Below, piece after piece: positions 2,669 through 53,420 of a stretch of 64,000 nucleotides of DNA; the first letter of the stretch is position 1, and the number at the start of each line of letters is the position of its first letter. Below the pieces are notes generated by a model. It did no database searches. It was not told the origin of the DNA and saw only the letters and a program-made list of their open reading frames with translations. The stretch is taken from the NCBI RefSeq assembly GCF_009914755.1, contig NC_060937.1, one strand, 5' to 3'. The position numbers and the translations under genes are program-made. The stretch comes from the human T2T-CHM13v2.0 reference genome, Homo sapiens.

Positions 2669-2731
2669 AGACCATCGAGACTAGGAAGAAACTGCATCAA
2701 CTAACGAGCAAAATAACCAGCTAACATCATA

Positions 2732-6555
<3,824 letters not shown>

Positions 6556-6610
6556 ACAATGAGATCACATGGACACAGGAAGGGGAATATCACACTCTGG
6601 GGACTGTTGT

Positions 6611-6631
6611 GGGGTGGGGGAGGGGGGAGGG
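6611..6631 (+). other. L1 3'UTR G-rich tract (G-quadruplex motif), intact
   Basis: GGGGTGGGGGAGGGGGGAGGG: four G-runs with 1-nt loops. Confidence 0.8.
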
Positions 6632-6779
6632 ATAGCATTGGGAGATATACCTAATGCTAGATGACGAGTTGGTGGGTGCAGCGCACCACCATGGCACATG
6701 TATACATATGTAACTAACCTGCACAATGTGCACATGTACCCTAAAACTTAAAGTATAATAATAAATAAATAAATTAAAA

Positions 6780-9700
6780 AAAACTGCTCAATCAAAAGAA
6801 AGCTTCAACTCTGTGAGATGAAGGCACACCTCACAAAAAAGTTTCTCAGAACTCTTCTGTCTTGTTTTTTGTGAAGATATTTCCTTTTCCACCCTAGGCC
6901 TCAAAGCCCTCCCAATTTCCTCTTGCAGATTCAACAAAAAGAGTTTCAGAACTGCTCAATCAAAAGAAAGGTTTCACTCTCTGAGATGAATGCGCACATC
7001 ACAAAGAAGTTTCTCAGTTTGCTTCTGTCTAGATTTTATGCGAAGATATTTCCTTTTCTAACATAGGCTGCAAAGTGCTCCAAATGTCCACTTTCAGATT
7101 CTAAAAATATAGTGTTTCCAAACTACTCAATCAAAAGAAAATTTCAACTCTGTGATTTGAACGCACAGATCACAAAGACGTTTCTCAGAATTCTTCTGTC
7201 TAGCTTTTATGTGAAGATATTTCCTTTTCCACCGTGGGACTCAAAGCACTCCAAAAGTCCACTTACAGATCCTACAAAAAGAGAGATTCAAAACTGCTCA
7301 ATCAAAAGAAAGTTTTACCTCTGTGAGATGAATGCACACATCCCAAAGAAGTTTCTCATTTTGCTTCTGTCTAGATTTTATGTGAAGATATTTTGTTTTC
7401 TACCATAGGCCTCAAAGATCCCAAAATGTCCACTTGTAGATTCTACAAAAAGAGTATTTCAAAACTGCTAAATTGAAAATTCTCCAACTCTGTGAGATGC
7501 ATGGACACATTACAAAGAAGTTTCTCAGAATGCTTCTGTCTAGTTTTTATGTGAAGACATTTCCTTTTCCAAAACAGGCCTCAAAGCACTCCAAATATCC
7601 ACTTGCAGATTCTAAAAAAGAATGTTTCAAAACTGCTCCATCATAAGAAAATTTCAACTCTGTCACGCGAATGCACACATGTCAAAAGAGTTGCTCAGAA
7701 TGCTTCTGTCTAATTTTTATGTGAAGATATTTCCTTTTCCACTATAGGCAGTATAGCACTCCAAATATCCACTTGCAGATTCCACAAATAGAGTGTTTCC
7801 AAACTGCTGAATCAAAAGAAAGTTTCGAGTCTGTGAGATGAGTGCACACATCATAAAGAAGTTTCTCAGCATGCTTCTGTCTAGTTTTATGTGAAGATAT
7901 TTCCTTTTCCACCGTAGGCCTCAAAGCGCTCCAAATAACGAATTGCAGATTCTACAAATGAGTTTTTCAAAACTGCTCAATCAAAAGAAAGTTCAACTCT
8001 CTAAGATGAATGCACACATCACAAAGAATTTTCTCAGAATGATTCTGTCTAGTTTTTATGTGAAGATAGTTCCTTTTCCACCATAGGCCCCAAAGCGCTC
8101 CAAATGTACGCTTTCAGATACTACAAAAAGAGTGTTTCAAAACTGCTCAATCAAAAGAAAGTTTCAGCTTTGTGAGATGAATGCACACATCACAAAGTAG
8201 TTTCTCAGAATATTTCTGTAGGATTTTATGTTAAGATATTTAGTTTTCCACCATAGACCTCCTAGCACTCCAAATGTCCACTTGCAGGGTCTACAAAAAG
8301 AGTGTTTCAAAGCTACTCAATCAAAAGAAAGTTTCAACTCTGTGAGATGAGTGCACACATCACAAAGTAGTTTCTGAGAATGCTTCTATTTATTATGTGA
8401 AGATGTTTCATTTTCCAACTTAGGTCTCAAAGCACTCCAGATGTCCACCTGCAGATTCTACAAAAAAAGTGTTTCAAAACTGCTCAATCGAAAGTAAGAT
8501 TCAGCTCTGTGAGATGAAGTTTGTCAGAAATCTTTTGACTAGTTTTTATGTGAAGATATTTCCTTTTCCACCATAGTTCGCAAAGCGCTCCAAATGTCCT
8601 ATTGCAGATTCTACAACAAGAGTGTTTCAAAACAGCTCAATCAAAAGTAAGGTTAAATTCTGTGAGATGAATGCACACATCACAAAGAAGGTTCTCAGAA
8701 AGCTTCTGTCTAGCACCTAAGTGAAGATATTTTCTTTTCCACCGCAGGCCTCAAAGCACTCCAAATGTCCTTTTGCAAATTCTACAAAATGTGTTTCAAA
8801 ACTGATCAACCAAAAGAAAATTCCAACCCTGTCAGATGAATGCACACATCACAAAGAAGTTTGTCAGAATGATTCTGTCTAGTTTTTATGTGAAAATATT
8901 TCCTTTTCCACCATAGCCTGCAAAGCGCTCCAAATGTCCACTTGCAGATTCTTCCAAAAGGGTTTTTCAGACCTGCTCAATCGAAAGTAAGGTTCAACTC
9001 TGGGAGCTGCATGCTCACATCCAAAAGAAGTTTGTCAGAATGATTCTTTCTAGTTTCGATGTGAAGATGTTGCCTTTTCCACACTAGGCCTCGCAGTGCT
9101 CAAAATGTCCACTTGCAGATTCTACAAAAAGAGTGTTTCCAAACTGCTCAATCAAAAGAAAATTTCCAGTCTGTGAGGTGAATTCACACATCACAAAGAA
9201 GTTTCTCAGAATGCTTCTGTCTAGTTTTTATGTGAAGATATTTCCTTTTCCACCATAGGCCTGAAAACTCCAAATATCCACTTGCAGATTGTACAAAAAG
9301 AGTGTTTCCAAACTGCTCAATCAAAAGAAAGGTTCAAATCTGCGAGATGAATGCACACATCACAAAGAAGTTTGTCAGAATGTTTCTGTATAGTTTTTAT
9401 ATGAAGATACTTCCTTTTCCACCATAGGCTTCAAAGGGCTCCAAATTCCCACATGCAGATTGTACAAAGTGTTTCAAAGCTGTTCAATCAAATGAAAGGT
9501 TCAAACCTGTGAGATGAATGCGCACATCACAAAGAAATTTGTCAGAATGCTTCTGTCTAGTTTTTGTCAAGATATTTCCTTTTCCATCATAGGCCTCAAT
9601 GCACGCCAAATGTCCACTTGCAGATATTACAAAAAGGGTGTTTCAAAACTGCTGAATCAAAAGAAAATTTCAACTCTTTGAGATGAATGCACATATCACA

Positions 9701-9946
9701 AAGAAGTTTGTCAGAATGCTTCCGTCTAGTTTTTATGTGAAGATTTTTTTTTAAATATGCCTCAAATCGCTCCAAATGTCCACTTGCTGATTCTACAAAA
9801 AGAGTGTTTCCAAACTGCTCAATAAAAAGAAAGGTTCAACTCTGTGAGAAGACCGCACACATCACAAAGAAGTTTCTCAGAATTCTTCTGTCTAGGTTTC
9901 ATGTGAAGATATTTCCTTTTCCACCATAGGCCTCAAAGTGCTCCAA
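6780..9946 (-). repeat. Alpha satellite, divergent; dimeric type to ~7450, then a monomeric type in which TTTGTCAGAA/AAGTAAG variants appear from ~8500
   Basis: Continuous 171-bp monomers. Ends mid-monomer at ...CCTCAAAGTGCTCCAA. Confidence 0.96.
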
Positions 9947-12900
9947 TCCACTCCACTGAATTCCATTCTTTCGCATTCCATTTCACTCCATTCCACTCCA
10001 CGCCACTCCACTGCACTCCACCCCACTCCATTCCATTCCATTCCATTCCGTTCCATCCCACTCCATTCCATTCCATTCATTTCTTTCGACAGGATCTCCG
10101 TCTGTAACCCAGGCTGCAAGGCAGTGGCAAAATCTCAGCTCACGTTTCATTTCACCATTCCATTCCATTACATTACATGCCATTCCTTTCCATTCAATCC
10201 GTTCAACTCCACTCCACTTCACTGCACTCCATTCCATTCCATCATATTCCAGTTCTCTCCATTCCACTCCACTCCAATCAAGTCCAATCGACTCCACTTC
10301 ACTCCATTCCATTCCATCCCATTGCATTCAACTCCACTCCACTCCACTCCTTTCTTTTCACAGTATCTCACCCTGTCAACCAGTCTGGAGTGAAGTGGCA
10401 CAATCTCAGCTCACATTTCATTTCACCATTCCATTCTACTCCATTCCACTCAATTCCATTCCATTGCATTCCATTCAATTCCATTCCACTCCATTCCATT
10501 CCACTACACTGCACTTCACTCCACTAAACTCCATTCCAATGCATCCCACTCCATTCCACTACACTCTACTCCACTCCCTTCCATTACATCCCATTGCATT
10601 CAACTCCATTGCACTCCACTCCACTCCACTCCACTCCACTCCCTTCCATTCCATTCCATCCCACACCACTACATTCCATTCCATTCCATTCTTTCGACAG
10701 GATCTCACTCTGTCGCCCAGGCTGGAGTGCAGTGGAGCAATCTCAGCTAACATTTCACTTCACCATTCCATTGCATTCCATTCCATTCCATTCCATTCCA
10801 TTCCATTCCATTCCATTCCATTCCATTCCATTCCATAACATTCCACTGCACTCCAGTCAACTCCACTCCACTTCATTCCATACAACTCCATTCCATTTCA
10901 TTCCATTTAATCCACTCCATCCCCCTCCAGTCCACTCCACTCCATCCCAAACCATCCCATTCCATTCCACTCCATTCCACTCCAATCCACTCCACTCCAG
11001 TCTAGTCCACTACATTCCAATCGACCTTAATCCATCCCATCATATTCCACTCCTTTCCCCTCCACTCCACTCCACTCCACTTCTCTCCACTCCACTCCAC
11101 TCCATTCTATTCCATTCCATTCCACTCCATTCCGTTCCATTCATTTCTTTTGACAGGATCTCACTGTGTAACCCAGGCTGGAGTGCAGCGCCACTATCTC
11201 AGCTCACATTTCATTTCACCATTCCATTCCATTCCATTCCATTCCATTCCATTCCATTCCATTCCATTCCATTCCATTCCATTCCATTCCACTACACTAC
11301 ACTCCGTTCCATTCCATTCCATTCCACTCCATTCCAGTCCACTCAACTCCACACCACTCCACTCCACTCCATTCCATTGAATCCCATTCTATTCCACTCC
11401 ATTGCACTCCACTCCAATCCACTCTACTCCACTCCATTCCGTTCTATTCCATTCCATCCCATTCCATTCCACAGCATTCCACTCCCCTCCAATAAACTCT
11501 ACTCCAATCCACTCCATTCCATTCCATTAAACTCCATTCCATTCCATACCTTTCTTTCGACAGGATCTCACTCTGTCACACAGGCTGGAGTGCAGTGGCA
11601 CAATCTCAGCTCCCATTTCATTTCACCATTCCATTCCATTCTATTCCATTTCATTCCATTCCACTGCACTCCACTCCATTTCTTTCATTCCACTCCACTT
11701 CATTCCATCCCATTCCATTCCACTCCATTCCACTCCTCTCCACTCCATTCTATTAGACTACATCCCATTGCATTCCACCCCATTACACTCCACTGCACTC
11801 CACTCCACTCCAATACACTCCACTCCACTCCGTTCCATTCCATTCTATTCCATTCCATTGTATTCCATACCTTTCTTTTGACATTATCTCACTCTGTCAC
11901 CCAGGCTGCAGTGCAATGGCACAATCTCAGCTCACTTTTCATTTCACCATTCCATTCCATTGCATTCCATTTCATTCAATTCCATAGCGTTCCATTCCAT
12001 TCCATTCCATTCCATTCCATTCCATTCCTTTCAATTCCATTCCATTCCATTGCACTCCACTCCACTCCACTCCACTCCATTTAACTCCACTCCATTCTAT
12101 TCCACTCCATTGCTTTCCATTCCATTCCACTCCATTCCATTCCACCCCACTCCACTCCACTCCATTCCATCCCATTCCATTTCACTCCATTCCACTCCAC
12201 TCCTCTCCATTCCACTCCATTCCATTCAACTCCATCCCATTGCATTCCCCTCCGTTCCCCTCCACTCCGCTTCAGTCCACTCGAGTCCACTCCACTTCAC
12301 TACATTCCACTCCACGCCATTCCATTCCATTGCACTCAGTTATGTTTCATTCCTTTCTTTTGAGAGGATCTCACTCTGTCTCCCAGGCTGGAGTGCAGTG
12401 GCACAATCTCAGCTCACATTTCATTACACCATTCCATTCCACTGCGTTCCATTCCATTCCGTTCCATTCCATTCCATTCCACTCCACTCCAACGCATCCA
12501 TTCCACTCCATTCCATTCCATTTCACTCCACTCCACAGCACTCCACTAAATTCCATCTGGTTCCTTTAGACTCTATTCCACTCAACTCCACTCCACTTCA
12601 CTCCACTCCATTCCATTCCATTCCATTATACTCCAATCAATTCTATTCCTTTCTTTTGACAGAATCTCACTCTGTCACCCAGGGTGGAGTGCAGTGAAAC
12701 TATTTCAGTTCACATTTCATTTCACCATTCCATTCCATTCCATTAAATTCCATTCCATTCCATTCTATTCCACTCCACTCCACTCCACTCCACTCCACTC
12801 CACTCCATTCCATCCCATTCCATTCCACTCCATTCCACTCCTCTACAATCCATTCCACTCCACTCCATTCCCTTCCACTCCACTCCTCTCCACTCTAATC

Positions 12901-15900
12901 CACTCCATTCCATTCCATTCCTCTCCATTCTCTTCCATTCCTTTCTTTGGACAGGATCTCACTCTTTCCCCCAGGTTGGAGTGCAGTGGCACAATCTCAG
13001 CTCACATTACGTTTCACCATTCCATTCCATTCCATTCCATTTCATTCCATTCCATTCCACTCCACTATATCCATTCCACTCCATTACATTACATTCCACT
13101 CCACTCCAGTCCACTCCATTCAACTCCACGCCACTCCACTCCATGTCATTCCATACCATTACATTCCACTCCATTCCATTCCACTCCACTCCACTCCATT
13201 CCATTCCATTCCTTTATTTTAACAGATTCTCACTCTGTCACCAAGGCTGGAGTGTAGTAACACTATTTCAGTTCACATTTCATTTCACCATTCCAATCCA
13301 TTCCATTCCATTCCATTCCATTCCATTCCATTCCATTCCATTCCATTCCATTCCTTTCCTTTCCATTCCGTTCAATTCCATTCCATTCCATTCCATTCCA
13401 TTCCATTCCTATCCACTCCACTCCACTCCATTCCATCCCATACCATTATATTCCACTCCGTCCCACTCCACTTCACTCCATTCCAGTCCATTCTACTCCA
13501 TTCCATTCCATTCCTTTCTTTTAACAGAATCTCACTCTGTCACCAAGGCTGGAGTGCAGTAACACTATTTCAGTTCACATTTCATTTCACCATTCTAATC
13601 CATTTCATTCCATTCCATTCCTTTCCTTTCCATTCCGTTCAATTCCATTCCATTCCATTCCACTCCACTCCACTCCACTCCACTCCATTCCATCCCATTC
13701 CATTCAACTCACTTCCACTCCTTTCCATTCTACACCACTCCACTCCATTCCATTCAACTCCCTTCCACTCCAGTCCACTCCACACCACTCCACTCCATTC
13801 CATTCCATCCTATTCCATTCCACTCCATTGCACTCCACTTCACTCCACTACCCTCCACTCCATTCAATTCCACTCTAAACCATTCCATTCCACTCCACTC
13901 CACTCCAGTCCACTACTCTCCACTCCATTCCATTCCATTCCACTCCATTCCATGCCATTCCATTCGTTTTCTTCGAACGGGTCTCACTCTATCACTGAGG
14001 CTGAAGTGCAGTGGCACAATCTCAGCTCACATTTCATTTCACCATTCCATTGCATTCCATTCCATTCCATTTAATTACAATCCTTACCACTCAACCCCAC
14101 TCCATTCCACGCCATTCCATTCCATTACATTACATTTCAGTAAATTCCATTCCAGTCCACTCCACTCTGCTACATTCCATTCAATTCCATCCCATCCCAT
14201 TCCACTCCATTCCATTCCTCTCCACTCTACTCCACTCCACTCATCTCCATTCCATTCCACTCCATTCCATTCCATTCCTTTCTTTCGACAACATCTCACT
14301 CTGTCACCCAGGCTGGACTGCAGTCGCACAATCACAGCTCACATTTAATTTCACCATTCCATTCCATTCCATTCCATTCCATTGCACTCCACTGCACTCC
14401 ACTCCATTCCACTCCACTCCATTCCACATCACTCCACTCCACTCCAATGCATTACATTCCCTTTCATCCCCTTCCATTCCACTCCATTCCACTCCACTCC
14501 ACTCCACTCCATTCAATTATATTCCTTTCCATTCCACTCCATTCCATTCCATCACTTTCTTTTGACAGGGTCTCACTCTGTCACACAGGCTGGAGTACAG
14601 TGACACAATCTGAGCTCACATTTCATTTCACCTTTCCATTCCATTCCACTCCAGTCCACTCAACTCCACTCCACTCCATTCCCTTCCATTCCAATGCACT
14701 CCAATCCTCTCCTATACACTCCATTCCATCCAAATCCATTCCACTCCATTTCACTCCACTCCACTCCACTCCGATACTTTCCATTACAACACAGTACATT
14801 CCACTCCATTCCACTCCACTCAACTCCACTGTATTGCATTCCATTCAATTCCAATACACTCCATTACACTACTTTCCTATCCTTCTACAGGATCTCACTC
14901 TGTCACCCAGGCTGGAGTGAAGTGGCACAATCTCAGCTCACATTTCATTTCACCAGTACTTCCCATTCCATTCCGTTTCGTTCCATTCTGATCTACTCCG
15001 TTCCACTGCACTACATTCCACTCCCTTCCACTAAACTCCACTCAACTCCAGTCCACTCCACATCACTACACTCCATCCCATTCCATGCCACTCCTTTCCA
15101 TTCCACTGCACTCCACTCCATTCCATTCCATTACATTGCATCCCATTAGATTCCATTCCATGCCACACCATTCCACTCCACTCCACTCCATTCCATTCCA
15201 TCCCATTTCATTCCATTCCATTCCATTCCATTCCATTCCATTCCATTCCATCTGTTTCCATTCCATTCCATTCCATCCGTTTCCATTCCATTCCATTCCA
15301 TTCCATTCCATTCCATTCCATTCCATCCCATCCCATGCCATCCCATTCCATTCCATTCCATTCCTTTCCATTCCATTCCATTCCACTCCATCTCTTTCCA
15401 TTCCCTTCCACACCATTCCATTCCCTTCTTTCGACAGGATCTCACTCTGTGATACAGGCTGGAGTGCAGTAGCACAATCTCATCTCACGTTTCATTTCAC
15501 CATTCCATTCCACTCCATTCCACTCCACTTCACTCCACTCCACTCTAATCCACACCATTCCACTCTATTCCATTCCACTCCATTCGATTCCATTCCTTTC
15601 TTTGAGATGATCTCACTCTGTTACCCAGGCTGGAGAGCAGTGGCACAATTTCAGCTCACATTTCATTTCATGAGTCCATTCCATTCTATTCCATTCCATT
15701 CTACTCCACCCCACTCCACTCCATTCCATTCTATTCCACTCCATTCCATTCCATTCCATTCCATTCCACACCATTCAATTCCATTCTACTCCATTCCATT
15801 CCATTCCTTTATTTCCACTGGGTTTCACTCTGTCACCCAGAGAGGAGTACAGTGGAACAATCTTAGCTCAAATTTCATTTCACCATTCCATTCCATTCCA

Positions 15901-18900
15901 TTCCATTCCATTCCACTCCACTCCACTCCAATCCTCTCAACTCCACTCCACTCAACTCAACTCCATTCTGTTCCATTCCATTCCAGTCCGTTCCATTGCA
16001 TTGCATTCCGTTCCATTCCATTCCTTTCCACTCCACTGCATACCATTCCACTCCATTCCACTCCAGTCCACTCCAGTCCACTCCACTCCACTTCACTCCA
16101 TTCCACTCTACACCACTAAACTCCATCCACTCCATTCCCCTCCTTTCGATTCCATTCCATTCCATCCCATTCCATTCCACTTCACTCTGATCCACTCCAC
16201 TAAACTCCACTCCACTCCACTCCATCCCATTCCGTTCCATTCCGTTCTGTTCTGTTCCATTGCACTCCATTACATTCAACTCCACTCCTCTCCACTCCAC
16301 TCCATTACACTCCATTCACTCCTTTCCACTCCACTCAACTCCATTCCATTCCACTCCACTCCACTCCATTTCACTCCATTCCACTCCATTCCATTCCACT
16401 CCATTACACTCCATTACACTCCACTCCTTTCCATGCCACCCCATTCCACTCCACTCCATTCCACTCCATTCAATTCCACTCCACTACAATCCATTCTATT
16501 CTACGCCATTCCATTCTGTTCCTCTGTTTCGACAGGATCTCACTGTGTCACCCAGACTGGAGTACAGTGGCACAATTGTAACTCACATTTCATTTCACCA
16601 TTCCATTCTTTTCATTCCACTCCACTCCAGTCCACTCCACTCCACTCCACTCCATTTCACTCCATTCCACTTCATTCCATTCCACTCCATTCTGCTCCAT
16701 TACAGTCCACTCCATTCCGCTCCACTCCATTCCACTCCACTCCATTCCATTCCATTCTACTCCATTCCATTCCATTCTTTTATTTTGACTGGATCTCACT
16801 GTGTCACCCAGAATGGAGTGCAGTGCACAATCGTAGCTCACATTTCATTTCACCTTTCCATTGCATTCCATTCCATTCCATTCCTTTTCATTCCACTCCA
16901 CTCCATTCCAGTCCACTGCACTCCACTCCAATCCATTCCACTACACTCCTTTCCATTCCTTTCCATTCCATTCCACTCCACTCCATTCCACTCCACTGCA
17001 CTCCACTCCAATCCATTCCACTACATTCCTTTCCATTCCATTCCTTTCCAATCCATGGCAATCAGTTCCACTTCACTCAAAACCACCACACCCCACTCCA
17101 CTCCGTTCTGTTGCATTCCATTCCATTCCGTTCCATTGCATTCCATTCTATGCCATTTCATTCCATTCCACTCCACTCAATTACATTCCGCCCCATTCCA
17201 CTGCACTCCGCTCCATTCAAGTTCCATTCCACTGCACTCCGGTCCACTCCACTCAGTTCCACTGCATTCCATTCCACTGCAGTCATTTCCATTCCGTTCC
17301 AATCCTTTCCATTCCATTCTATTCAACTCCATTCCGTTCCACTCCACTCCTTTGTACTCCACTCCATTTCAATCGATTCCACTCCATTCCACTCCACTCC
17401 ACTCCACTCCATTGCATTCCATTCCCTTCAACTCCATTCCATTCTACTCCATTCCACTGCATTCCACTCCATTTCCCTCCATTCCATTCCACTCCACTCC
17501 ATTCCAATCAACTCCAATCCTTTCCTCAACATTCCATTCTACTTCACTCCATTGCATTCCATTCCACTCCATTCCATTGCATTCCTGTATTTCGACTGGA
17601 TCTCACTCTGTCACCCAGACTCGAACACTGTGGCACAATCTTAGCACACATTTCATTTCACCATTCCTTTCCATTCCATTCAATTGCATTCCATTGCACT
17701 GAAATCCGATCCAATCCACTCAACTCCACTCAACTCCACTCCGTTCCGTTCCATTCCACTCCTTTCCATTCCATTGCATTCTGTTCCATTTCATTCCATT
17801 CCATTCCACTGCATTCCATTCCACTCCATTCCACTCAACTCCGCTCCACGCTACTCTAATCCACTCTATTCCACTGCACTCCAGTAAACTCCACTCCACT
17901 CCAGTCCTCTCGATTACTTTAAATTCCATTCCACTCCATTACACTGCAGTCTGATCCACTCCACGCAACTCTACTCCTCTCCACTCTGTTCCATTCCGTT
18001 CTGTTGCATTCTGCTCTGTTCCGTTGCATTCCACTCCATTCCATTACACTCCAATCCACTGCATTCCACTCCACTGCACTCCAATCCACCCCACCCCACT
18101 CCATTCCACTCCTCTCCATTCCACTCCACTCCACTCCATTCCACTACACTCCTTTCCATTCCATTCCATTCCATTCCTTTCCATTCCACAGCAATCTGAT
18201 CCACTCCACTCAACTCCATTCCACTCCACTCCATTCCATTCCATTCCATTCCATACCATTCTGTTCCATTCATTCCATTCTGTTCCTTTCCATTGCATTC
18301 CAATCCACTCCATTCCATTCCACTCTATTCCAGTCCACTCCACACCACTCCACTCTATTCCACTCCTATCCACTCCACCCCACTCCACTCCACTCCCTTC
18401 AATTTCATTCCATTCCATTCCATTCCATTCCATTCCACAGCACTCTGATCCACTCCACTCAGTTCCACTCCATTTCACTCCACTCCATTCCGTTCCATTC
18501 CATTCTGTTCTGGTACGTTCCATTCCGTTCCATTAAACTCCATTCCATTCCATTCCACTCCACTCCATTTCACTCCACTCTACTCCATTCCACTTCCCTC
18601 CACTACAATCCACTCCAATACACTCCACTCCATTCCACTCCATTCCACTCCATTCATTCCATTCCAATTCATTCCACTCCATTCCACTCCAGTCCACTCC
18701 ATTCCATTCCACTCCAGTCCACTCCATTCCATTCCACTCCACCGCATTCCACTCACTCCCCTCCACTCCATTCCACTCCACTCCATTCCACTCTATTTCT
18801 TCCACTCCACTCCATTCCATTTCATTCCATTCCACTCCATTCCACTCCACTCCAATCCACTCCCCTCCATTCCACTCCACTCCATTCTATTCCACTCCAT

Positions 18901-21900
18901 TCCATTCCACTCCACTCCATTCCATTATATTCTACTGCATTTCAATCCATTCTTTTATTTCGACTATATCTCACTCTGTCTCCCAGACTAGAGTGCAGTG
19001 GCATAATCTTAGCTCACACTTCATTGCACGATTCCATTCCATTTCATTCAATTGCATTTCATTCCATTCTATTCCACTGCCATCCTATCCACTCCACTCA
19101 ACTCCACTCCACTCCACTCCATTCCGTTCCATCCCATTCCATAGCATTCTGATCCTTTTTATTCCATTCCACTCCACTCCATTCTATTCCACTCCATTCC
19201 ACTCCATTCCACTCCACTCCACTCCACTAAACTGTAATCCATTCAATTTCATTCCACTCCACTCCACTAAACTCCATTCCACTCCACTAAATTTCATTAA
19301 ATTATTTTCCATTCCATTCCAAAGCATTCCCATCCATTCCACTCAATGCTACTCCACTCCACTCCTTTCCATTCCTTTCCACTCTGTGCAGTTCAGTTCC
19401 ATTCCATTCCACTCCACACCACTCCACTCCTTTCCACTCCACTGCACTCCACTCCACTCCATTCCACTCCAATACACTGCACTCCACTCCATTCCACTAC
19501 ACTCCTTTCCATTCCATTCCATTCCATTCCATTCCATTCCATTCCTTTCCTTTCCTTTCCTTTCCTTTCCACGGCAATCTGATCCACTCCAGTCAACTCC
19601 ACTCCACTCCACTCCTTTCCATTCCATTCCATTCCATTCCATTCCATTCCATTCCATTCCATTCCATTCCATTCCATTCTATTCCATTCCATCCCATTCC
19701 ATTCCATTCCACTCCACTGCATTTCATTCCACTCCATTCAACTACACTCCACTCCACTCGAATCCACTGCAATACATTCCATTCCATTCCATTCCATTTC
19801 ATTCCACTGCACTCCAATCCACTCCTCTCAACTCCACTCCGCTCCATTCGATTCCATTCCGTTCCGGTCAGTTCCATTCTGTTCCACTCCACTCCATTTC
19901 ATTCCACTCCACTCCACTCCACTTCACTCCATTAGACTCCACTCCATTCCGTTCCATTCCATTCCATTCCATTCCTTTCTGTTCCTTTCCATTCCATTCC
20001 ACTCCACTACATTCCATTCCACTCCATTCCACTCTACTGCACTCAACTCCACTCCAATCCACCCCACGCCACTCCCCTAAATTCCATTCTATTTCATTCC
20101 ATTGCATTCAATTTCATTCCACTGCATTCCGATCCGCTCCACCCTACTCCACTCCACTCCATTCCAGTCCAATCTATTCCATTCCGTTCTGTTCCATTTC
20201 ATTCCCTTCCATTCCGTTCCATTTCTTTCCATTCCATTCCATTCCTTTCCACTCCACTCCATTCCTTTCCACTCCATTCCACTCCACTCCACTCCAGTCC
20301 ACACCACTCCACTCCATTCTATTCCACTCCATTCCATTACAATACACTGCACTTCATTGTCTTCCGTTCTGTTCCACTCCATCCCACTGCCCTCCATTCC
20401 ATTCCACTACATTCCACCACACTCCACTACACTCCACTACACTCCACTACATTTTATTGCAGTCCATTCCATTATATTCCACTCCATTCCATTCCATTCC
20501 ACTCCAATTCATGCCATTCCATTCCACTCCATTCCACTCCAATCCATGCCATTCCATTCCACTCAATTTCACTCCTTTCAATTATGTTCAATTCTGCTCC
20601 ACTCATTCCACTACACTACACTCCCCTCCATTCCACTCCACGCCACTCTACTCCATTCCACTCCATTCCATTCCACTCCACTCGATTCCATTCCATTCTA
20701 CTCCATTCCATTCCATTCCTTTATTTCGACTGGATCTAACTCTGTCACCGAGACTGGAGTGCAGTGGCACAATCTTAGCTCACATTTTATTTCATAGTTG
20801 CATTCCATTCCATTTCATTCCATTCCCTTCCATTCCATTCCCCTGCACTCCAATCCACTCCACTAAACTCCACTCCACTCCGTTCTGTTCCGTTCCATTC
20901 TATTCCATTCCATTCCATTCCATTCCACTCCACTCCATTCCATTCCACTCCACTCCACTCCATTCCATTCAATTCCCTTCCACTGCACTCTGATCCCCCC
21001 CACTCAACTCCATTCCGATCCACTCTGTCCCCTTCCATTCTATTCTCTTCTGTTCTGTTCCATTCCATTTCACTCCATTCCATTCCACTCCATTCCATTC
21101 CACTCCACTCCATTTCACTATATTCCACTCCACTCCACTCCTCTACATTTCATTGCACTACATTCCATTATATTCCCCTCCATTTCATTCCTTTCCATTC
21201 AGCTCCAATGCATTCCATTCCATTATATTCCCCTCCATTCCATTCCTTTCCATTCAGCTCCAATGCATTCCATTCCATTCCATTCCACTCCATTCCATTC
21301 CATTCCATTCCACTCAATTCCACTCCATTCCATTCCACTCCATTCTGCTCCACTCATTCCGCGATACTACACTCCCCTACATTCCACTCCACTCCAATCC
21401 ACTCCACTCCATTCCACTCCACTCCATTCCATTCCATTCCTTTATTTCAACTGGATCTACCTCTTTCACCCAGACTGGGGTGCAGTGGCACAATCTTAGC
21501 TCACATTTCATTTCTTCGTTGCATTCCATCCCGTTTCATTCCATTCCATTACATTCCATTCGTTTCCATTCCCCTGCACTCCAAACCACTCCACTCAACT
21601 CCACTCCACTACACTCCGTTCTGTTCCATTCCATTCCATTCCATTCCATTCCATTCCATTCAGTTCCACTCCACTCCATTCCATTCAACTCCACTCCACT
21701 CCACTCCATTCTGTTCCATTCCATTCCCCTCCACTCCGATCCCCTCCACTCAACTCCATTCCACTTCACTCTGCTCCGTTCAATTCCATTCCATTCTCTT
21801 CCATTCCGTTCCATTCCATTCCATTCCATTCCATACCATTCCACTCCACTCCATTTCATTCCATTCTATTCCACTTCTTTCCACTCCACTCCACTCCACT

Positions 21901-22287
21901 CTATTCCATTCCAGTCCATGCCATTGAATTCCACTGCACTCCAATCAACTCCACTCAACTCCACTCCACTAGATTCCTTTAAGTTCCATTCCATTCCTTT
22001 CCACTCCATTCCGTTCCATTCAACTCCATTCCATTCCATTCCACTGCATTCCACTACACTCTATTTCACTCCATTCCACTCCACTCCACTCCAATCCATT
22101 CCAATCCATTCCATTCCTTTCCATTCCTCTGCACTCTGATACACTCCACTCAACTCCATTCTACTCCCCTGTACTCCATTCTGTTCCACTCCTTTCCATT
22201 CCATTCCGTTCCATTCCATTCCATTCCACTCCATTGCATTCCACTCCTTACCACTCTAATCCACTCCACTCTTCTCCACTCCACTAC
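9941..22287 (+). repeat. HSat3-like (CATTC/CACTC)n satellite block, composite with periodic Alu fragments
   Basis: Degenerate 5-bp CATTC/CACTC repeats throughout, with pure CATTC runs at ~10775-10834, ~11220-11290 and ~19620-19678. Strong C/G strand asymmetry. Confidence 0.95.
10088..21504 (-). repeat. 24 tandemly amplified ~56-bp Alu 3'-end fragments (AluJ-like) embedded in the pentamer satellite
   Basis: Consensus on + is GACAGGATCTCACTCTGTCACCCAGGCTGGAGTGCAGTGGCACAATCTCAGCTCAC. Approximate starts: 10088, 10359, 10696, 11152, 11559, 11880, 12362, 12658, 12950, 13221, 13523, 13975, 14287, 14564, 14886, 15433, 15604, 15816, 16531, 16787, 17594, 18962, 20728, 21449. It aligns to the start of the full Alu at ~35017-35073 in this window. 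Confidence 0.93.
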
Positions 22288-25200
22288 CCAGAAGCATTCT
22301 GAGAAAGTTCTTTATGAGGTGTGCAGTCAATTCCCAGATTTGAACCTATCTCTTGAATGAGCAGTTTAGAATCTCTCTTTTTGCAGAATCTGCAAGTGTA
22401 TATTTGGAACGTTTTGAGACCTAATGTGGGAAAGCAAACATCTACATCTAAAAACTACACAGAAGCATTGTGAAAAACTTTTTTGTTAGGTGTGCATTCA
22501 ACTCACAGAGTCGAAAATATCTTCTGATTGAGCTGTTTTGAATCACTCATTTTGCAGAATCTGCAAGTAGATATTAAAGACCTCTGAGGCCTTCTGTGGA
22601 AAAGGAAATATCTTCAGATAAAAACTACACAGAAGCATTCTGAAAAACTTCTTTGTGATGTGTGCATTCAACTCAAAGGGTTGAACATATCTTTGGATTG
22701 AGCAGTTTTGAATCTCTCTTTTGGCAGAATCTGCAAGTGGATATTTGGAGACCTTTCAGGCCTACTGTGGAAAAGCAAATATCTTCAAATACAAACTACA
22801 CAGAAGCATTCTGAGAAACTTCTCTGTGAGGTGTGCATTCAACGCACAGAGTCGAACCTATCTATTGATTGAGCAGTTTTCAATCTCTCTTTTTATAGAA
22901 TCTGTAAGTGGATAGTCAGAGCGGTTTGAGGCCTATTGTGGAAAAGGATGTATCTTCAAATAAAAACTACACAGAAGCATTCTGAGAAACTTCTTTGTGA
23001 TGTGTCCATTCAACTCACAGAGTTGAACTTATCTCTTGATGGAGAAGTTTTGAATCTCTCTTTTTGTAGAATCTTCAAGTGGATATTTGGAGCCCTTTGT
23101 GGCCTATGGTGGAAAAGGAAATATCTTCAAATAAAAACTACACAGAAGCATTCTGAGAAACTTATTTGTGATGTGTGCATTCATCTCACAGGGTTGAACC
23201 TATCTTATGATTGAGCAGTTTTGATACACTCTTTTTGTATAATGAGCAAATGGATATTTGGAGGGCTTTGAGGCCTACTGTGGAATCACAAATATCTTCA
23301 CCTAAAAACTACACAAAATCATTCTGAGAAACTACTTTGTGATGTGTGCATTCAACTGACAGAGTCGAACCTCTCTTTTGATGGAGCAGTTTTGAATCTC
23401 TTTTTGCAGAATCTGCAAGTGGATTTTGGAGAGCTTTGAGGCCTATTGGGGAAAAGCAAATATCTTCATGTAAAAACTACACAGAAGCATTTTGAGAAAC
23501 TTCTTTGTGATGTGTGCATTCAACTGACAGAGTTGAACCTAGCTTTGATTAAACCGTTTTGAATCTCTTTTTTTGTAGAATCTGTGAGTGGATATTTGGA
23601 GCCCTTTGTGGCCTATGGTGGAAAAGGAAATATGTTCACATAAAAACTACACAGAAGCATTCTGAGAAACTTCGTTGTGATGTGTGCATTCATCTCACAG
23701 GGTGAACCTACCTTATGATTGAGCAGTTTTGAAACACACTTTTTGTGGAAATCAGCAAGTGGATATTTGGAGCACTTTGCGGCCAATTGTGGAAAATCAA
23801 ATATGTTCACATAAAAACTACACAGAAGCATTCAGAGAAACGTCTTTGTGATGTGAGCATTCACCTCACAGAGTTGATTCTTTCTTTTGATGGAGCAGTT
23901 ATGAAACACTGTTTTTGTAGAATCTGCAAGTGGATATTTGGAGCTATATCAGCCCTATTGTGGAAAAGGAAATATCTTCACATAAAAGCTACACAAAAGC
24001 ATTCTGATAAACTTCTTTGTGATGTGTGCATTCAATTCACAGAGTTGAACCTATCTTTTGATTGAGCAGTATTGAATCTCCTTTTTTTTTGGAATCTGCA
24101 ATTGGATATTTGGAGCCCTTTGCAGCCTATGGTGGAAAAGGAAATACCTTCAAATAAAAACTACACCGAAGCATTCTGAGAAACTTCTTTGTGATGTGTC
24201 CATTCATTTCACAGAGTTGATCCTTTCTTTTTATCCAGCAGTTTTGAAACACTCCTTTTATAGTATCTGCAAGTAGATATTTCGATCACTTTGAGGCCTA
24301 CCACGGAAAAGCAAATATCTTCACATAAAAACTACACAGAAACATTCTGAGAAACTTTTTTGTGATGTGCACATTCATGTCACAGAGTTGAACGTTTCTT
24401 TTGATGGAGCAGTTTTGAATCTCCTTTTTTTTATAATCTGCAATTGGATATTTGGATCCCTTTGCAGCCTATGGTGGAAAAGGAAATACCTTCAAATAAA
24501 AACTACACAGAAGCATTCTGAGAAACTTCTTTGTGATGTGTGCATTCATTTCACAGAGTTAATCCTTTCTTTGTATTCAGCAGTTTTGAAACACTCCTTT
24601 TATAGAATCTGCAAGTAGATATTTGGAGTGCTTTGAGGCCTACTGTGCTAAAGCAAATATCTTCATCTAAAAACTACACAGAAGCATTCTGAGAAACTTC
24701 TTTGTGATGTATGCATTCATCTCATGGAATTGAACGTTTCTTTCGATTAGGCAGTTTTGAATCTCCCTTTTTGCAGAATCTGCAAGTGGATATTTAAGAG
24801 CTTTGAGGCCTATTGTGGAAAAGGAAATATCTTCACATAAAAACTACACAGATGCATTCTGAGAAATTTCTTTTTGATGTGTGCATTCATCTCACAGGGT
24901 TGAACCTGTCTTATGATTGAAAGGTTTTGAAACACTGTTTTTGCAGAGCCTGCATGTGGAAATTTTGAGTGCTTTGAGGCCTATTGTGGAAAAGGAAATA
25001 TGTTCACATAAAAGCTACACAGAAGCATTCTGAAAAACGTCTTTGTGATGAGTGCATTCATCTCACAGAGTTGATCCTTTCTTTTTATTCAGCAGTTTTG
25101 AAACACTCCTTTTAGAGAATCTGCAAGTAGATATTTGGAGCGCGTTGAGGCCTACCATGGAAAAGCAAATATCTTCACATAAAAACTACACAGAAATATT

Positions 25201-28200
25201 CTGAGAAACTTTTTTGTGGTGTACACATTCATGTCACAGAGTTGAACCTTTCTTTTGATTGAGCAGTTTTGAAAGACTCTGTTTGTAGAATCTGCAAGTG
25301 GATATTTGTAGCGATTGAGGCCTGTTGTGGAAAAGGAAATATCTTCACATAAAAACTACAGAGAAGCATTCTGAGAAACTTCTTTGTGATGTGTGTATTC
25401 AACTCACAGAGTTGAACCTATCTGCTAATTGAGTAGTTTTGAATCTCTCTTTTTGCAGAATCTGAAAGTTGATATTTGGAGAGCTTTGAGGCCTATTGTG
25501 GAAAAGGAAATATCTTCACATAGAAACTACACAGAAGCATTCTGAGAAACTTCGTTGTGAGGTGTATATTCAAAACACAGAGTCGAACCTATCTTTTGAA
25601 TGAGCAGCTCTGAATCTCCCTTTATGCAGAATCTGCAAGTGGATATGTGGAGAGCTTTGAGGCCTATTGCTGAAAAGGAAATATCTTCAAATAAAAACTA
25701 AACAGAAGCATTCTGAGAAACTTCTTTGTGATGTGTGTATTCAAGTCACAGAGTTGAACCTATCTTTAGATTGAACAGCTGTGAATCTTTCTTTTTGTAG
25801 AATCTATGAGTGTATATTTGGGGCCCTTTGCAGCCTATGGTGGAAAAGGAAATATTTTCAAATAAAAACTACACAGAAGCAGTCTGAGAAACTTCGTCAT
25901 GATGTGTGAATTCATCTCACGGAGTTGAATCCTTCTTTTGATTGATCAGTTTTGAAACACTGTTTTTGTAGCATCTGCAAGTGGATATTTGGAGCGCTTT
26001 GAGCCCTACCGTGGAAAAGCAAATATCTTCAAATAAAAACTTCACAGAAGGATTCTGAGAAACTTCTTTGTTATGTGTGCATTCATCTCACAGAGATGCA
26101 CCTTCCTTTTGATGGAACAGTTTTAAAACACTCTGTTTGTAGAATCTGCAAGTGGATATTTGGAGCGATTTGAGGCCTATTGTGGAAAAGGATATATCTT
26201 CACATAAAAGCTACACAGCAGCATTTTGAAAAACTTTTTTGTGATGTGTGCATTCAACTCAGAGAGTTGAACCTATCTTTTGATTGGACAGTTTTGAATC
26301 TCTCTTTTTGTGCAATCTGCAAGTGGATATTTGGAGCCCTTTGTGGCCTATGGTGGAAAAGAAAATATCTTCAAATAAAAACTACACAGAAGCATTCTGA
26401 GAAACTTGATTGTGATGTGTGCATTCATCTGGCAGGGTTGAACCTTTCTTTTGATTGGGAAGTTTTGAAACACTCTTTTTGCAGAATCTGCAAGTGGATA
26501 TTTAGAGCGATTTGAGGCCTATTGTGGAAAAGGAAGTATCTTCACATAAAAATTACACAGAAGCATTCTGAGAAACATCTTTGTGATGTGTGCATTCATT
26601 TCACAAGGTTGAACCTATCTTATAATTGGACAGATATCTATTTCTCTTTTTGTAGAATCTGCAAGTGGATATTTGGAACCATTTACACTCTATGGTGGAA
26701 AGGGAAATATCTTCAAATAAAAACTACACAGAAGCATTCTGAGAAAAGTCTTTGTGATCTGTGCATTCATCTCAGTGGGTTGAACCTATCTTATGATAGA
26801 GCAGTTTTGAAACACTCTTTATGTATAATCAGCAAGTGGATATTATGAGCACTTTGAGGCCTACTTTGGAAAAGCACATATCTTCACCTAAAAACTACAC
26901 AAAAGCATTCTGAGAAACTTCTTCGTGATGTGTGAGTTCACCTCACAGAATTGAACCTTTCTTTTGATTGAGCAGTTTTGAAACACTCTTTTTGTAGAAT
27001 CTGCAAGTGGATATTTGGAGTGATTTGAGGCCTATTGTGGAAAAGGAAATATCTTCAAATAAAAACTACACAGAAGCATTCTGAGAAACTTCTTTGTGAT
27101 GTGTGCATTCAACTCAGAGAGTTGAACCTATCTTTTGATTGAGCCGTTTTGAATCTCTCTTTTTGTAGAATCTGCAAGTGGATATTTGGAGCCCTTTGTG
27201 CTCTTCGGTGGAAAAGGATATATCTTCAAATAAATACTACACAGAAGCATTCAGAGAAACTTCATTGTGATGAGTGCATTCATCACACAGAGTTGAAACC
27301 TTCCTTTGATTGAACAGTTTTGAAACACTCTTTTTGCAGTATCTGCAAGTTGATATTTGGAGAGCTTTGGGGCCCATTGTGGAAAAGGAAATATCTTCAG
27401 ATAAAAACGACACAGAAGCTTTCTGGGAAACTTCTTTGTGATGTGTGCATTCAACTCACAGAGTTGAATCTATCTTTGGATTGGGCAGATTTGAATCTCT
27501 CTTTTGTAGGATCTGCAAGTCGATATTTGGAGCCCTTTGTGGCCTATAATGGAAAAGGAAATATCTTCAAACTGAAACTACACAGAAGCATTCTGAGAAA
27601 CATCCTTGTGATGTGTGCATTTGTCTCACAGAATTTAACTGTTCTTTTGATTGAGCTGTTTGGAAACACTCTTTTAGTAGAATCTGCAAGTGGATATTTG
27701 GAGCTATTTGAGGCCTATTTTGAAAAAGGAAATATCTTCACATAAATACTGCGCAGAAGCATTCTGCGAAACTTCTTGTTATGTGTGCATTCAACTCACA
27801 GTGTTCACCCTATCTTTTGATTCAGCACTTTTAAATCTCTCATTTTGTAGAATCTGCAAGTGGATACTTGGAGTACTTTGTGCCCTATGGTGGAAAATGA
27901 AATATCTTCAAATAAAAACTACACAGAAGCATTCTGGGAAACTTCTTTGAGAAAAATGCATTCACCACACAGAGTTGAAGCTTTCTATTGACTGAGTAGT
28001 TTTGAAACACTTTTTTTGTAGAATCTAGAAGTGAATATGTGAAGGGCTTTGCGGTCTATTTTGGAAAAGGAAATATCTTCGTATAAAAACTACACAGAAG
28101 CATTCTGGGAAACTTCCTTGTTATGTGTGAATTCAACTCATGGATTTGAACCTATCTTTTGACAGAGTAGTTTTGAAACTCTCTTTTGGTAGAATCTGTA

Positions 28201-28250
28201 CGTGGATATTTGGGGCGCTTTGCAGCCTATGGTAGAAAACGGAATACCCT
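22283..28250 (+). repeat. Alpha satellite, monomeric layer of the AAAACTACACAGAAGCATTC / GTGGATATTTGG type
   Basis: Nearly every monomer has ACTACACAG (not ACTAGACAG) and GGATATTT, and many have GAATCTCTCTTTT. No CENP-B box seen. Right boundary approximate. Confidence 0.93.
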
Positions 28251-31200: not shown

Positions 31201-32050
31201 CATTCATCTCACTGAGATAAACTTTTATTTTAATTCAGAAGTTTTGAAACTCTTTTTGTAGAATCTGAAAGTGGACATTTGGAGCGCTTTGAGGCCTATG
31301 GTAGAAAAAGAAATATCGTAACATAAAATCTATACAGAAGAAATCAGAGAAACTTCTTTGTGAAGTGTGCATTCATCTCACAGAGTTGAACCTTTCTTCT
31401 GATTGAAGAGCTTTGAAACTCTCTTTTTGTAGAATCTGGAAGTGGACATTTGGAGTGTTTTGAGGCCTATGGTGGAAAAGGAAATATCTTCACATACAAT
31501 CTAGACAGAAGCAAGAAGAGAAATTTCTTTGTGATGTGTGCATTCATCTGACAGAGTTGGACCTTTCTTTTGATGGAGCAGTTTTGAAACTCTCTTTTTG
31601 TAGAATCTGAAAGTGGACATTTGGAGGGTTTTGCAGGCTATGGTAGAAAAGGAAATATCTTCACATAAAATCTAGACCGAAGCAATGGGAGAAACTTCTT
31701 TGTGATGTTTGCATTCATCTCACAGAGGTAAACCTTTCTTTTGGTGGACCAGTTTTGAAAGATTCTTTTGTAGAATCCGCAAGTGGATATTTCGAGTGCC
31801 TTGAGGCCTATTTTGGAAAATAAATTATCTTCACATAAAAACTAGACAGAAGAACTCCGAGAAACTTTTTTGTGATGCGTGCATTCATCTCACAGAGTTG
31901 AACTTTGTTTTGATTGAACAGTTTGGAAACACTCTTTTTGTAGAATCTGCAAGTGGACATTTGGATCGCTTTGGAGTCTATGGTAGAAAAAGAAATATCT
32001 TCACATAAAATCTAGACAGAAGCAATCTGAGAAACTACTTTGTGATGTCT

Positions 32051-32055
<5 letters not shown>
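28251..32055 (+). repeat. Alpha satellite, dimeric layer
   Basis: Alternation of AAAATCTAGACAGAAGCAATCTGAG...GTTAAA...TTTTGAAACTCT with AAAAACTAGACAGAAGAATTCTGAG...GTTGAA...TTTGGAAACACT, and GGACATTT. Confidence 0.92.

Positions 32056-37900
<5,845 letters not shown>

Positions 37901-49871: not shown

Positions 49872-53420
<3,549 letters not shown>

What the first reader, a model, noticed from the sequence alone, without database searches (positions are those of the whole stretch)
9941..22287. Composite satellite: 24 identically truncated Alu cassettes spaced by variable (CATTC/CACTC)n tracts
Seen: each unit is [pyrimidine patch TTCCTTTCTTTC] + [~56-bp antisense Alu 3' end] + [near-invariant linker ATTTCATTTCACC] + [variable pentamer tract]. 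All 24 copies have the same orientation and the same two endpoints; no TSDs or true poly(A) were seen. Established: independent TPRT insertions would have different truncation points and their own TSDs, and an Alu fragment inside a satellite unit has precedent in HSat1B/DYZ2. Inference: one old Alu remnant (GACAGG(G/A)TCTC is the AluJ-type end) became part of the repeat unit and was amplified in tandem. The true unit is therefore a ~300-bp+ Alu-pentamer composite that standard masking would split into simple repeats plus Alu scraps. I cannot tell whether it already has a subfamily name.
Basis: partly seen in the sequence, partly recalled or inferred. Interest (0 to 1): 0.8.

Follow-up and report, generated by a model that had tools for sequence, protein, structure and literature searches.

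The report
Alu scrap built into satellite 3
A 12-kb block of human satellite 3 on chromosome 13's short arm repeats one fixed 69-base piece (an old Alu tail end plus a short linker) between stretches of five-base repeats, and this same piece recurs thousands of times on many chromosomes, a feature the telomere-to-telomere papers have already noted in general terms.

Summary
Window 9947-22282 is a CATTC/CACTC pentamer block between two oppositely oriented alpha-satellite arrays. It holds 24 same-strand cassettes: an 8-nt T-rich patch, 56 nt of antisense Alu 3' end and a 13-nt linker. The Alu-plus-linker part is 69 nt in 23 of 24 copies.

- The Alu/linker/pentamer junction occurs 2125 times and the other junction 1441 times in the assembly, at up to 2 mismatches, with 0 control hits.
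- Sixteen sampled 10-kb regions on 12 chromosomes hold 7-30 co-oriented copies each, with the same consensus.
- All six Alu CpGs were already lost in the founder.
- Unit lengths differ between near-identical paralogues only by multiples of 5.

The AluJ call is ambiguous. Cassette-bearing arrays are CACTC-rich and look like HSat3A4, but the subfamily is not settled.

Altemose et al. 2021 and Rhie et al. 2023 already state that HSat3 carries ancient TE or Alu fragments in or among its units. The phenomenon is therefore known; only the detailed anatomy adds anything.

The parts
9947..22282 (+). HSat3 block: CATTC/CACTC pentamer arrays punctuated by 24 cassettes, with the CATTC strand on +
   Evidence: TRF period-5 array and the alpha-satellite limits. 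717 CATTC and 540 CACTC words in 12,350 nt.
10080..10156 (+). Cassette c01 (8-nt T patch + 56-nt antisense Alu 3' end + 13-nt linker)
10351..10427 (+). Cassette c02
10688..10764 (+). Cassette c03
11144..11220 (+). Cassette c04
11551..11627 (+). Cassette c05, closest to the consensus (96%); 99% identical to a copy at chr15:15.78M
11872..11948 (+). Cassette c06
12354..12430 (+). Cassette c07
12650..12726 (+). Cassette c08 (shares the CACTATTTCAGTTCAC variant with c10 and c11)
12942..13018 (+). Cassette c09
13213..13289 (+). Cassette c10 (95% identical to c11: a local duplication)
13515..13591 (+). Cassette c11
13967..14043 (+). Cassette c12
14279..14355 (+). Cassette c13
14556..14632 (+). Cassette c14
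14878..14954 (+). Cassette c15
15425..15501 (+). Cassette c16
15596..15672 (+). Cassette c17 (c16-c18 are only 171 and 212 nt apart; TRF reports this as a 171-nt period)
15808..15884 (+). Cassette c18, the first of the right-hand group with the four-variant type-II haplotype
16523..16599 (+). Cassette c19 (dropped by the gap filter; one search shows three of the four variants, T patch unclear)
16779..16854 (+). Cassette c20 (68 nt, type II)
17586..17662 (+). Cassette c21 (type II)
18954..19030 (+). Cassette c22 (type II)
20720..20796 (+). Cassette c23 (type II)
21441..21517 (+). Cassette c24 (type II)
6781..9946 (+). Left flank: alpha satellite, + orientation
22283..32054 (-). Right flank: alpha satellite in the opposite orientation, so the HSat3 block sits at a strand switch

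Best explanation
What it is. This block is one small array of a genome-wide, CACTC-rich lineage of human satellite 3, probably the acrocentric-enriched HSat3A4 type. Its repeat unit contains a fixed non-pentameric insert: the last 56 nt of an Alu right arm in antisense, with an 8-nt remnant of its A-rich tail on one side and a 13-nt linker on the other. The linker looks like two variant ATTTC pentamers.

How it most likely arose.
1. An Alu, or a piece of one, came to lie inside or beside a pentamer array (inferred).
2. It sat there long enough to lose all six CpGs of that segment (shown for the family consensus).
3. A unit made of this remnant plus flanking pentamers was then amplified in tandem and spread by unequal exchange and segmental duplication among acrocentric short arms and pericentromeres (shown as a pattern; the mechanism is inferred).

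What has happened since. The pentamer tracts grow and shrink in steps of five bases by slippage or unequal exchange, which is shown between paralogues. The cassette cannot slip, so it keeps its length and changes only by point substitution, about 10% from the consensus. That is why spacing varies while the cassette is rigid.

Function. No function of the cassette is indicated. It is best read as a passenger that marks descent.
For: Same ends and length. The cassette is 69 nt in 23 of 24 window copies. It is 69 nt in 241 and 68-70 nt in 328 of the 353 copies measured across the window and the 16 regions.

Genome-wide spread.
- The right junction 26-mer gives 1140 + 985 = 2125 matches at up to 2 mismatches, control 0.
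- The left junction 25-mer gives 745 + 696 = 1441 matches, control 0, including contig 24, which I take to be Y.
- Listed places are on chromosomes 1, 3, 4, 9, 10, 13, 14, 15, 16, 17, 20, 21, 22 and contig 24.
- All 16 fetched 10-kb regions hold 7-30 copies, co-oriented within each region.
- 415 of 436 aligned hits are full length and share one consensus, with 88-94% identity to it.

Alu homology. The cassette hits the window's own full Alu at E 8.1e-07. Its consensus matches 48 of 56 positions of the majority consensus of 37 chr19 Alus. Six of the 8 differences are CG to CA at Alu CpGs, carried by 89-97% of 348 copies.

One clade. Not rejected, p-AU 0.845.

Pentamer-step length change.
- Window versus chr21 paralogue (98.8% identical): unit lengths differ by 0, 0, -15, -10, 0, 0, 0, -5.
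- Window versus chr14 paralogue (97.6% identical): 0, 0, -5, -15, +5, +20, 0, -15.
- (Spacing - 69) mod 5 equals 3 in 185 and 2 in 81 of 336 units.

Unit-level homology beyond the cassette.
- The pentamer register and a conserved CACTC about 25 nt upstream are kept across the 24 copies.
- The first and last tenths of the tracts have a CACTC share of 0.19 and 0.27, against 0.39-0.52 inside (336 units).

A subset of HSat3 only. Two large HSat3 arrays (chr9:60.0M and chr15:10.0M) have 0 cassettes and a CACTC share of 0.06-0.07. Cassette-bearing loci have 0.38-0.48.
Against: - No regular period or higher-order repeat was found in this block. TRF finds only a weak 45-nt period and a local 171-nt one, so 'unit' is a loose term here.
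- Window copies are mostly closer to the consensus and to copies on other chromosomes than to their neighbours. This block therefore did not arise by recent local tandem amplification. The tandem step is old and is inferred from the pattern.
- Copies average 10.1% from a CpG-free consensus. Younger-type chr19 Alus differ from theirs by 7.5% at non-CpG sites, and older-type ones by 13.6%. At equal rates that leaves little time for the founder to age first. This needs an old founder, a faster rate in these arrays, or hidden substructure, and it is unresolved.
- The copy-number extrapolation (about 3200-3400) rests on loci that I chose from pattern hits, so it is biased.
- The HSat3A4 assignment is weak for this block itself: 0 hits at up to 1 mismatch for the Table-1 marker.
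Confidence: 0.88

Rival explanations
1. Co-amplification did not happen. Instead the cassette spread secondarily, by gene conversion or patchy non-allelic exchange, into pentamer arrays that already existed, so that the 'units' are not homologous as wholes.
For: - Tract interiors show no positional pattern: the CACTC share is 0.47-0.52 in deciles 3-9.
- Spacing is very variable, 137-1766 nt.
- Window copies do not cluster.
Against: - The cassette always has the same orientation relative to the CATTC strand in all 17 regions.
- CATTC-rich shoulders and a fixed pentamer register flank it.
- Spacing modulo 5 is strongly non-uniform.
- HSat3 arrays poor in CACTC have no cassette at all, so the cassette and the pentamer flavour travel together.
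Confidence: 0.07
2. The Alu came first. The pentamer arrays of this lineage grew out of the Alu's degenerating A-rich tail and its neighbourhood, as pentanucleotide expansions in Alu tails do elsewhere, and the cassette is the stump of that seed.
For: - The T patch lies where the tail would be and runs straight into CATTC repeats.
- The linker is two ATTTC words.
Against: - Pentamers flank the cassette on both sides, including the truncated 5' side, where no tail exists.
- HSat3 arrays without any cassette exist and are far larger.
- Altemose 2021 (passage) derives HSat2 and HSat3 from an ancestral (CATTC)n.
Confidence: 0.03
3. Independent Alu insertions into a hotspot in the pentamer repeat, each truncated at the same place.
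For: None beyond the Alu homology itself.
Against: - Both junction words recur, 2125 and 1441 times.
- There is no poly(A) longer than the 8-nt patch.
- The CpG-dead states are shared by 89-97% of copies.
- The real insertion in the window looks quite different.
Confidence: 0.01
4. The 56-nt core is not Alu-derived. It comes from another 7SL-related or unrelated source and resembles Alu by chance.
For: Rfam gives no hit in the block, including the 7SL/SRP models, at E up to 1.
Against: - 48 of 56 positions match a consensus of 37 genomic Alus, and 6 of the 8 differences are the expected CpG decays.
- Homology starts at the very 3' end of the Alu, next to a T-rich patch.
- A 56-nt piece is too short for the Rfam model to score.
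Confidence: 0.01

Closest known systems
Human satellite 3, acrocentric-enriched subfamily HSat3A4 (clone pTRS-47 type; Altemose et al. 2014, PMC4022460, Table 1 and passages read; Dataset S2 part 79 read)
   Same: - It is a pentamer satellite mixing CATTC with CACTC. All 3A4-specific 24-mers seen are such mixtures.
- Its listed localisations are 13, 14, 15, 21, 22 and Y.
- The Table-1 3A4 marker is the only one that recurs in cassette-bearing loci: 11 of the 16 fetched loci have at least one hit, up to 8.
- Its estimated size is 2,518 kb per diploid genome. That is close to my rough extrapolation of 3,300 units x 365 nt, about 1.2 Mb per haploid genome.
   Different: - The window block itself has 0 hits to that marker at up to 1 mismatch.
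- No published subfamily-specific 24-mer overlaps the cassette (0 hits for 9 cassette substrings on both strands; the 10th, an 11-nt linker word, matched only nine 3B2 24-mers in a non-cassette context).
- The cassette also lies on chromosomes 1, 3, 4, 9, 10, 16, 17 and 20.
HSat3-associated Alu fragments noted by the T2T papers (Altemose et al. 2021 bioRxiv 10.1101/2021.07.12.452052; Rhie et al. 2023 bioRxiv 10.1101/2022.12.01.518724; passages read)
   Same: [quoted passage not shown] 2001.
[quoted passage not shown]
- My tree agrees on the lack of clustering by locus, and I find the cassette on contig 24, taken to be Y.
   Different: - Those texts give no anatomy: no fixed endpoints, linker, copy number or CpG state.
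- Rhie et al. speak of Alu fragments 'including AluY', analyse the AluY fragments and derive them from PAR1 AluY. Here the segment is not clearly Y-type.
- I could not see their figures or supplements, so identity with this cassette is probable, not shown.
HSat1B / DYZ2 (2.5-kb unit with one Alu-derived part)
   Same: It is a satellite whose unit carries a fixed, old Alu piece (Altemose 2021 and Rhie 2023 passages).
   Different: - DYZ2 has a fixed unit length and an AT-rich body. At chrY:40.0M my model hits only the Alu part (model positions 12-75) every ~2417 nt, without either junction.
- Here the unit length varies and the body is pentameric. The two captures are independent.
Ordinary retrotransposed Alu (the window's own example at 35015-35295)
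   Same: The 56-nt segment is homologous to its 3' end.
   Different: The real insertion is 281 nt long, has a ~28-nt poly-T and a 14-nt TSD, and keeps many CpGs. The cassettes have none of these.

Membership tests
Human satellite 3 (HSat3) | Arrays derived from the pentamer CATTC/GGAAT | tested here: met
   TRF period-5 array 10426-22247. 717 CATTC and 540 CACTC words in 12,350 nt.
Human satellite 3 (HSat3) | Pericentromeric or acrocentric short-arm location next to other satellites | tested here: met
   The hub gives chr13:11.41 Mb. Alpha satellite lies on both sides.
HSat3 subfamily A4 (Altemose 2014) | Presence of subfamily-specific 24-mers | tested here: inconclusive
   - The Table-1 marker gives 0 hits at up to 1 mismatch and 6 at up to 2 in the block.
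- It recurs in 11 of 16 other cassette-bearing loci, and the control arrays gave their expected 3B5 and 3A5 markers.
Alu (3' end of the right arm) | Sequence homology to Alu | tested here: met
   E 8.1e-07 to the window's full Alu. 48 of 56 positions match the consensus of 37 chr19 Alus, and 6 of the 8 differences are at CpGs.
Alu (as a retrotransposition product) | Poly(A) tail and target-site duplication for each copy | tested here: not met
   There is only an 8-nt T-rich patch. A TSD cannot be assessed in pentamer flanks. The shared junctions show that the copies are not separate insertions.
AluJ subfamily | Diagnostic positions of the subfamily | tested here: inconclusive
   - Among 37 chr19 Alus, the GACAGGG-type end is seen only in those 14.5% or more from the majority consensus.
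- The cassette's ATCTCAGCTCAC matches the younger ATCTCGGCTCAC type, not the older ATCA(C/T)(A/G)GCTCAC type.
- The subfamily names attached to these states are recalled, and no curated consensus was available.
Composite satellite of the HSat1B/DYZ2 kind | A TE fragment fixed at one place in every tandem unit | tested here: met
Composite satellite of the HSat1B/DYZ2 kind | Constant unit length (higher-order period) | tested here: not met
   Spacing is 171-1766 nt in the window and 137-1766 nt in 336 units. TRF finds no matching period.
'Composite satellites' in the sense quoted by Altemose 2021 (made entirely of TE combinations) | A unit composed entirely of TEs | tested here: not met
   Most of each unit is a pentamer simple repeat. 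Only 56 nt are TE-derived.

The most novel reading that the evidence does not exclude
The cassette-bearing, CACTC-rich HSat3 is one monophyletic composite satellite lineage. It would comprise roughly 3,000 or more units, about 1 Mb, on at least 14 chromosomes, founded once from an already CpG-dead Alu 3' end. Its rigid 69-nt insert has not been explicitly defined or named in print. Because the insert cannot slip, it would serve as an alignable barcode inside an otherwise unalignable satellite. With it one could reconstruct how HSat3 was seeded on ancestral acrocentric arms and carried to pericentromeres (the model of bioRxiv 10.64898/2025.12.22.696095), and date that spread in apes.
Probability: 0.3. 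Interest if true: 0.4.

Novelty: already known. Interest (0 to 1): 0.2.

Why it matters
The finding shows that a reader without tools can recover the real unit structure of a satellite that masking breaks into simple repeats and Alu scraps. Biologically it is mainly a descent marker.

- The same two junctions on the five acrocentrics, contig 24 (taken to be Y) and eight other chromosomes tie these HSat3 arrays to one founding event.
- Pentamer-step length differences between 98-99% identical paralogues show directly how such arrays change size.
- The cassette could be used to trace HSat3 dispersal across apes.

None of this overturns current views, and the general point is already in the T2T centromere and Y papers.

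Tried and rejected
- Rfam scan of 9900-22400 at E up to 1: 0 hits. This is uninformative for a 56-nt piece.
- First fuzzy-regex scan: it found only 8 copies because of how best-match iteration works. I replaced it with nhmmer.
- HSat3 subfamily naming:
  - Table-1 markers of Altemose 2014 gave no clear call for the block.
  - Six pentamer-tract substrings searched in Dataset S2 gave only four near-miss 3B2 rows.
- Papers not held: Jarmuz 2007, Choo 1990 and 1992, Altemose 2022 review and the Science version. Bandyopadhyay 2001 and Vissel 1992 have no open copy that I could name. Whether those clone papers show this cassette is therefore unknown.
- Hoyt et al. 2021 preprint: 0 occurrences of HSat3, CATTC or Alu fragment.
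- Franklin et al. preprint (PMC11526998) and the 2025 Annual Review (PMC12771815): the searched passages say nothing on Alu pieces in HSat3.
- Literature searches for an explicit description returned only the two T2T statements.
- A strong polarity of the unit (CATTC-rich after the cassette, CACTC-rich before it), suggested by the ungapped window consensus, did not hold in 336 units. Only the two shoulders are CATTC-rich.
40 kb were used instead, so the Alu comparison rests on 37 elements.
- No ape or other human assemblies were available.
Full report
**What is there**

The stretch 9947-22282 is a pentamer satellite between two alpha-satellite arrays.
- TRF reports 171-nt arrays up to 9946 and from 22283, and a period-5 array in between.
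- A scan with one alpha monomer shows the left array on the + strand (6781-9946) and the right one on the - strand (22283-32054). The block therefore sits at a strand switch.
- The block contains 717 CATTC and 540 CACTC words in 12,350 nt.

**The cassettes**

- nhmmer with one cassette as query finds 24 copies at 10070-21529. All are on the + strand, with E from 2e-26 to 3.6e-15.
- They align almost without gaps and share both ends.
- From GACAGG to TTTCACC the length is 69 nt in 23 of 24 copies and 68 nt in one.
- Spacing runs from 171 to 1766 nt with a median of 322.

**Alu identity and the contrast case**

The 25th nhmmer hit (35013-35073, E 8.1e-07) is a genuine antisense Alu. It is 281 nt long (35015-35295), is preceded by about 28 T, and is flanked by a 14-nt direct repeat. 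It shows where cassette homology starts (at the very 3' end of the Alu, next to the tail) and where it stops (after GCTCAC).

Against the majority consensus of 37 Alus collected from 40 kb of chr19, the cassette consensus matches 48 of 56 positions. Six of the eight differences are CG to CA at Alu CpG sites, and the A state is carried by 89-97% of 348 copies. The founder had therefore already lost all six CpGs before it was multiplied.

The T patch lies where the A-tail would be, so I read it as its stump (inference). The linker looks like two ATTTC pentamer variants rather than Alu sequence (reading).

**Not a local oddity**

- In the window's own assembly, the cassette with flanks has 100% identical copies on chr21, chr15 and chr14, and 89-94% copies on chr10, 13, 14, 15, 16, 17, 20, 21 and 22.
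- The Alu/linker/pentamer junction 26-mer occurs 2125 times at up to 2 mismatches. The tail-side junction 25-mer occurs 1441 times. Backward-read controls give 0.
- Listed places include chr1, 3, 4, 9, 10, 13, 14, 15, 17, 20, 21, 22 and contig 24, which I take to be Y.
- I fetched 16 regions of 10 kb on 12 chromosomes. Each holds 7-30 cassettes, all co-oriented within the region.
- Of 436 aligned hits, 415 passed a filter of at most 6 gaps. One of the 24 window copies failed it. The copies give the same consensus as the window, with 88-94% identity to it.
- In the 353 copies measured across the window and those 16 regions, cassette length is 69 nt in 241 and 68-70 nt in 328.
- The junction words catch 231 and 147 of 348 model-detected copies. 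This extrapolates to roughly 3200-3400 copies. It is a biased figure, because I chose the loci from pattern hits.

**Single origin**

An IQ-TREE run used 56 columns with 23 window copies, 60 randomly drawn copies from elsewhere and 37 chr19 Alus.
- It does not reject the cassettes as one clade. The constrained tree is even better than the free one, p-AU 0.845.
- With so few columns most forks are open.
- Window copies do not cluster: 19 label changes for 23 rows, and 40 of 500 shuffles are as low.
- Most window copies are closer to the consensus or to a copy elsewhere than to any neighbour.

There are two exceptions.
- c10 and c11 are 95% identical, with c08 sharing their variants.
- The right-hand copies c18 and c20-c24 all carry a four-variant haplotype. 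The same haplotype occurs at chr15:15.78M (5 of 11 copies) and singly on chr1, 4, 9, 13 and 14. It is therefore a genome-wide cassette subtype, not a local novelty.

**How unit length varies**

- The chr21 paralogue is 98.8% identical to the window over 3.2 kb, and the chr14 paralogue 97.6%.
- Their cassette-to-cassette distances differ from the window's by 0, 0, -15, -10, 0, 0, 0, -5 and by 0, 0, -5, -15, +5, +20, 0, -15. Every difference is a multiple of five.
- Over 336 units, (spacing - 69) mod 5 equals 3 in 185 and 2 in 81. The pentamer register is therefore carried from one cassette to the next.
- The tracts have CATTC-rich shoulders: the CACTC share is 0.19 in the first tenth and 0.27 in the last, against 0.39-0.52 inside.
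- The stronger polarity I suspected was not borne out.

**Which HSat3**

- Two control regions in the big arrays, chr9:60.0M and chr15:10.0M, have 0 cassettes and a CACTC share of 0.06-0.07. They carry the published 3B5 and 3A5 markers as expected.
- Every cassette-bearing locus has a CACTC share of 0.38-0.48.
- The only Table-1 marker that recurs in cassette-bearing loci is that of HSat3A4, in 11 of the 16 fetched loci.
- The window block itself has none at up to 1 mismatch.
- All 3A4-specific 24-mers in Dataset S2 of Altemose 2014 are CATTC/CACTC mixtures, and none of the published subfamily-specific 24-mers overlaps the cassette.
- At chrY:40.0M the model hits only the Alu part of DYZ2 units, every ~2417 nt. 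That is a separate capture.

**Which Alu**

- In the chr19 sample, the GACAGGG-type end occurs only in Alus 14.5% or more from the majority consensus.
- Those same old Alus read ATCA(C/T)(A/G)GCTCAC where the cassette reads ATCTCAGCTCAC. The latter is the younger ATCTCGGCTCAC type after CpG decay.
- The 56 nt are thus mosaic at their two informative places. The labels J and S/Y for these states are from recall.
- Cassette copies average 10.1% from their consensus. Younger-type Alus differ from theirs by 7.5% at non-CpG sites and older-type ones by 13.6%.
- This argues for an old founder or a fast rate in these arrays, and I cannot tell which.

**What is in print**

- Altemose et al. [quoted passage not shown] 2001 (reference list; paper not seen).
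- Rhie et al. [quoted passage not shown] They add that the AluY fragments on Y and the acrocentrics cluster together, and that there is no local homogenisation.
- Six full-text searches found no text giving the cassette's ends, linker, copy number or CpG state.
- The older clone papers and all figures and supplements of the T2T papers were out of reach.

**Verdict**

- The phenomenon is already known.

Noticed in passing
window 34990-35310: A full-length antisense Alu (281 nt, 35015-35295) lies inside alpha satellite. It has a ~28-nt poly-T and a 14-nt target-site duplication (AAAAAGAGCATTTC) on both sides, and many CpGs are intact. It looks like a young, ordinary insertion.
   Followed up: yes
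window 1527-6780: A long L1 on the + strand interrupts the alpha satellite. Broken reading frames match the L1 ORF1 domains (Transposase_22 and its trimerisation domain), the endonuclease and the reverse transcriptase.
   Followed up: partly
window 49874-53397: A second non-satellite insert in alpha satellite. One 325-aa frame (51449-52426, + strand) matches reverse transcriptase at E 3.4e-38. It is probably another L1 piece.
   Followed up: partly
window 9946/22283, about 32055-32096, about 44990: The alpha satellite changes strand three times in the window: + up to 9946, - at 22283-32054, + at 32096-44990, and - from 44989 on. The first switch spans the HSat3 block.
   Followed up: partly
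window 15413-15767: TRF reports a 171-nt period here (2.1 copies, 82% matches). It is not alpha satellite. It is three closely spaced cassette units, c16-c18, 171 and 212 nt apart.
   Followed up: yes
cassette consensus, all copies: All six CpG losses in the Alu part go the same way: CG to CA on the CATTC strand. Six of six one way has a two-sided chance of about 1 in 32. This may reflect a strand bias or may be chance.
   Followed up: no
L017 (chr14:9.763-9.773M) and L018 (chr22:12.450-12.460M); L010 (chr3:95.52M) and L014 (chr13:5.13M): Pairs of arrays on different chromosomes show nearly the same series of cassette spacings, differing mostly by 5 or 10 nt. This indicates recent inter-chromosomal duplication of long cassette-bearing arrays. 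The chr3/chr13 series also repeats itself with a period of a few kb.
   Followed up: partly
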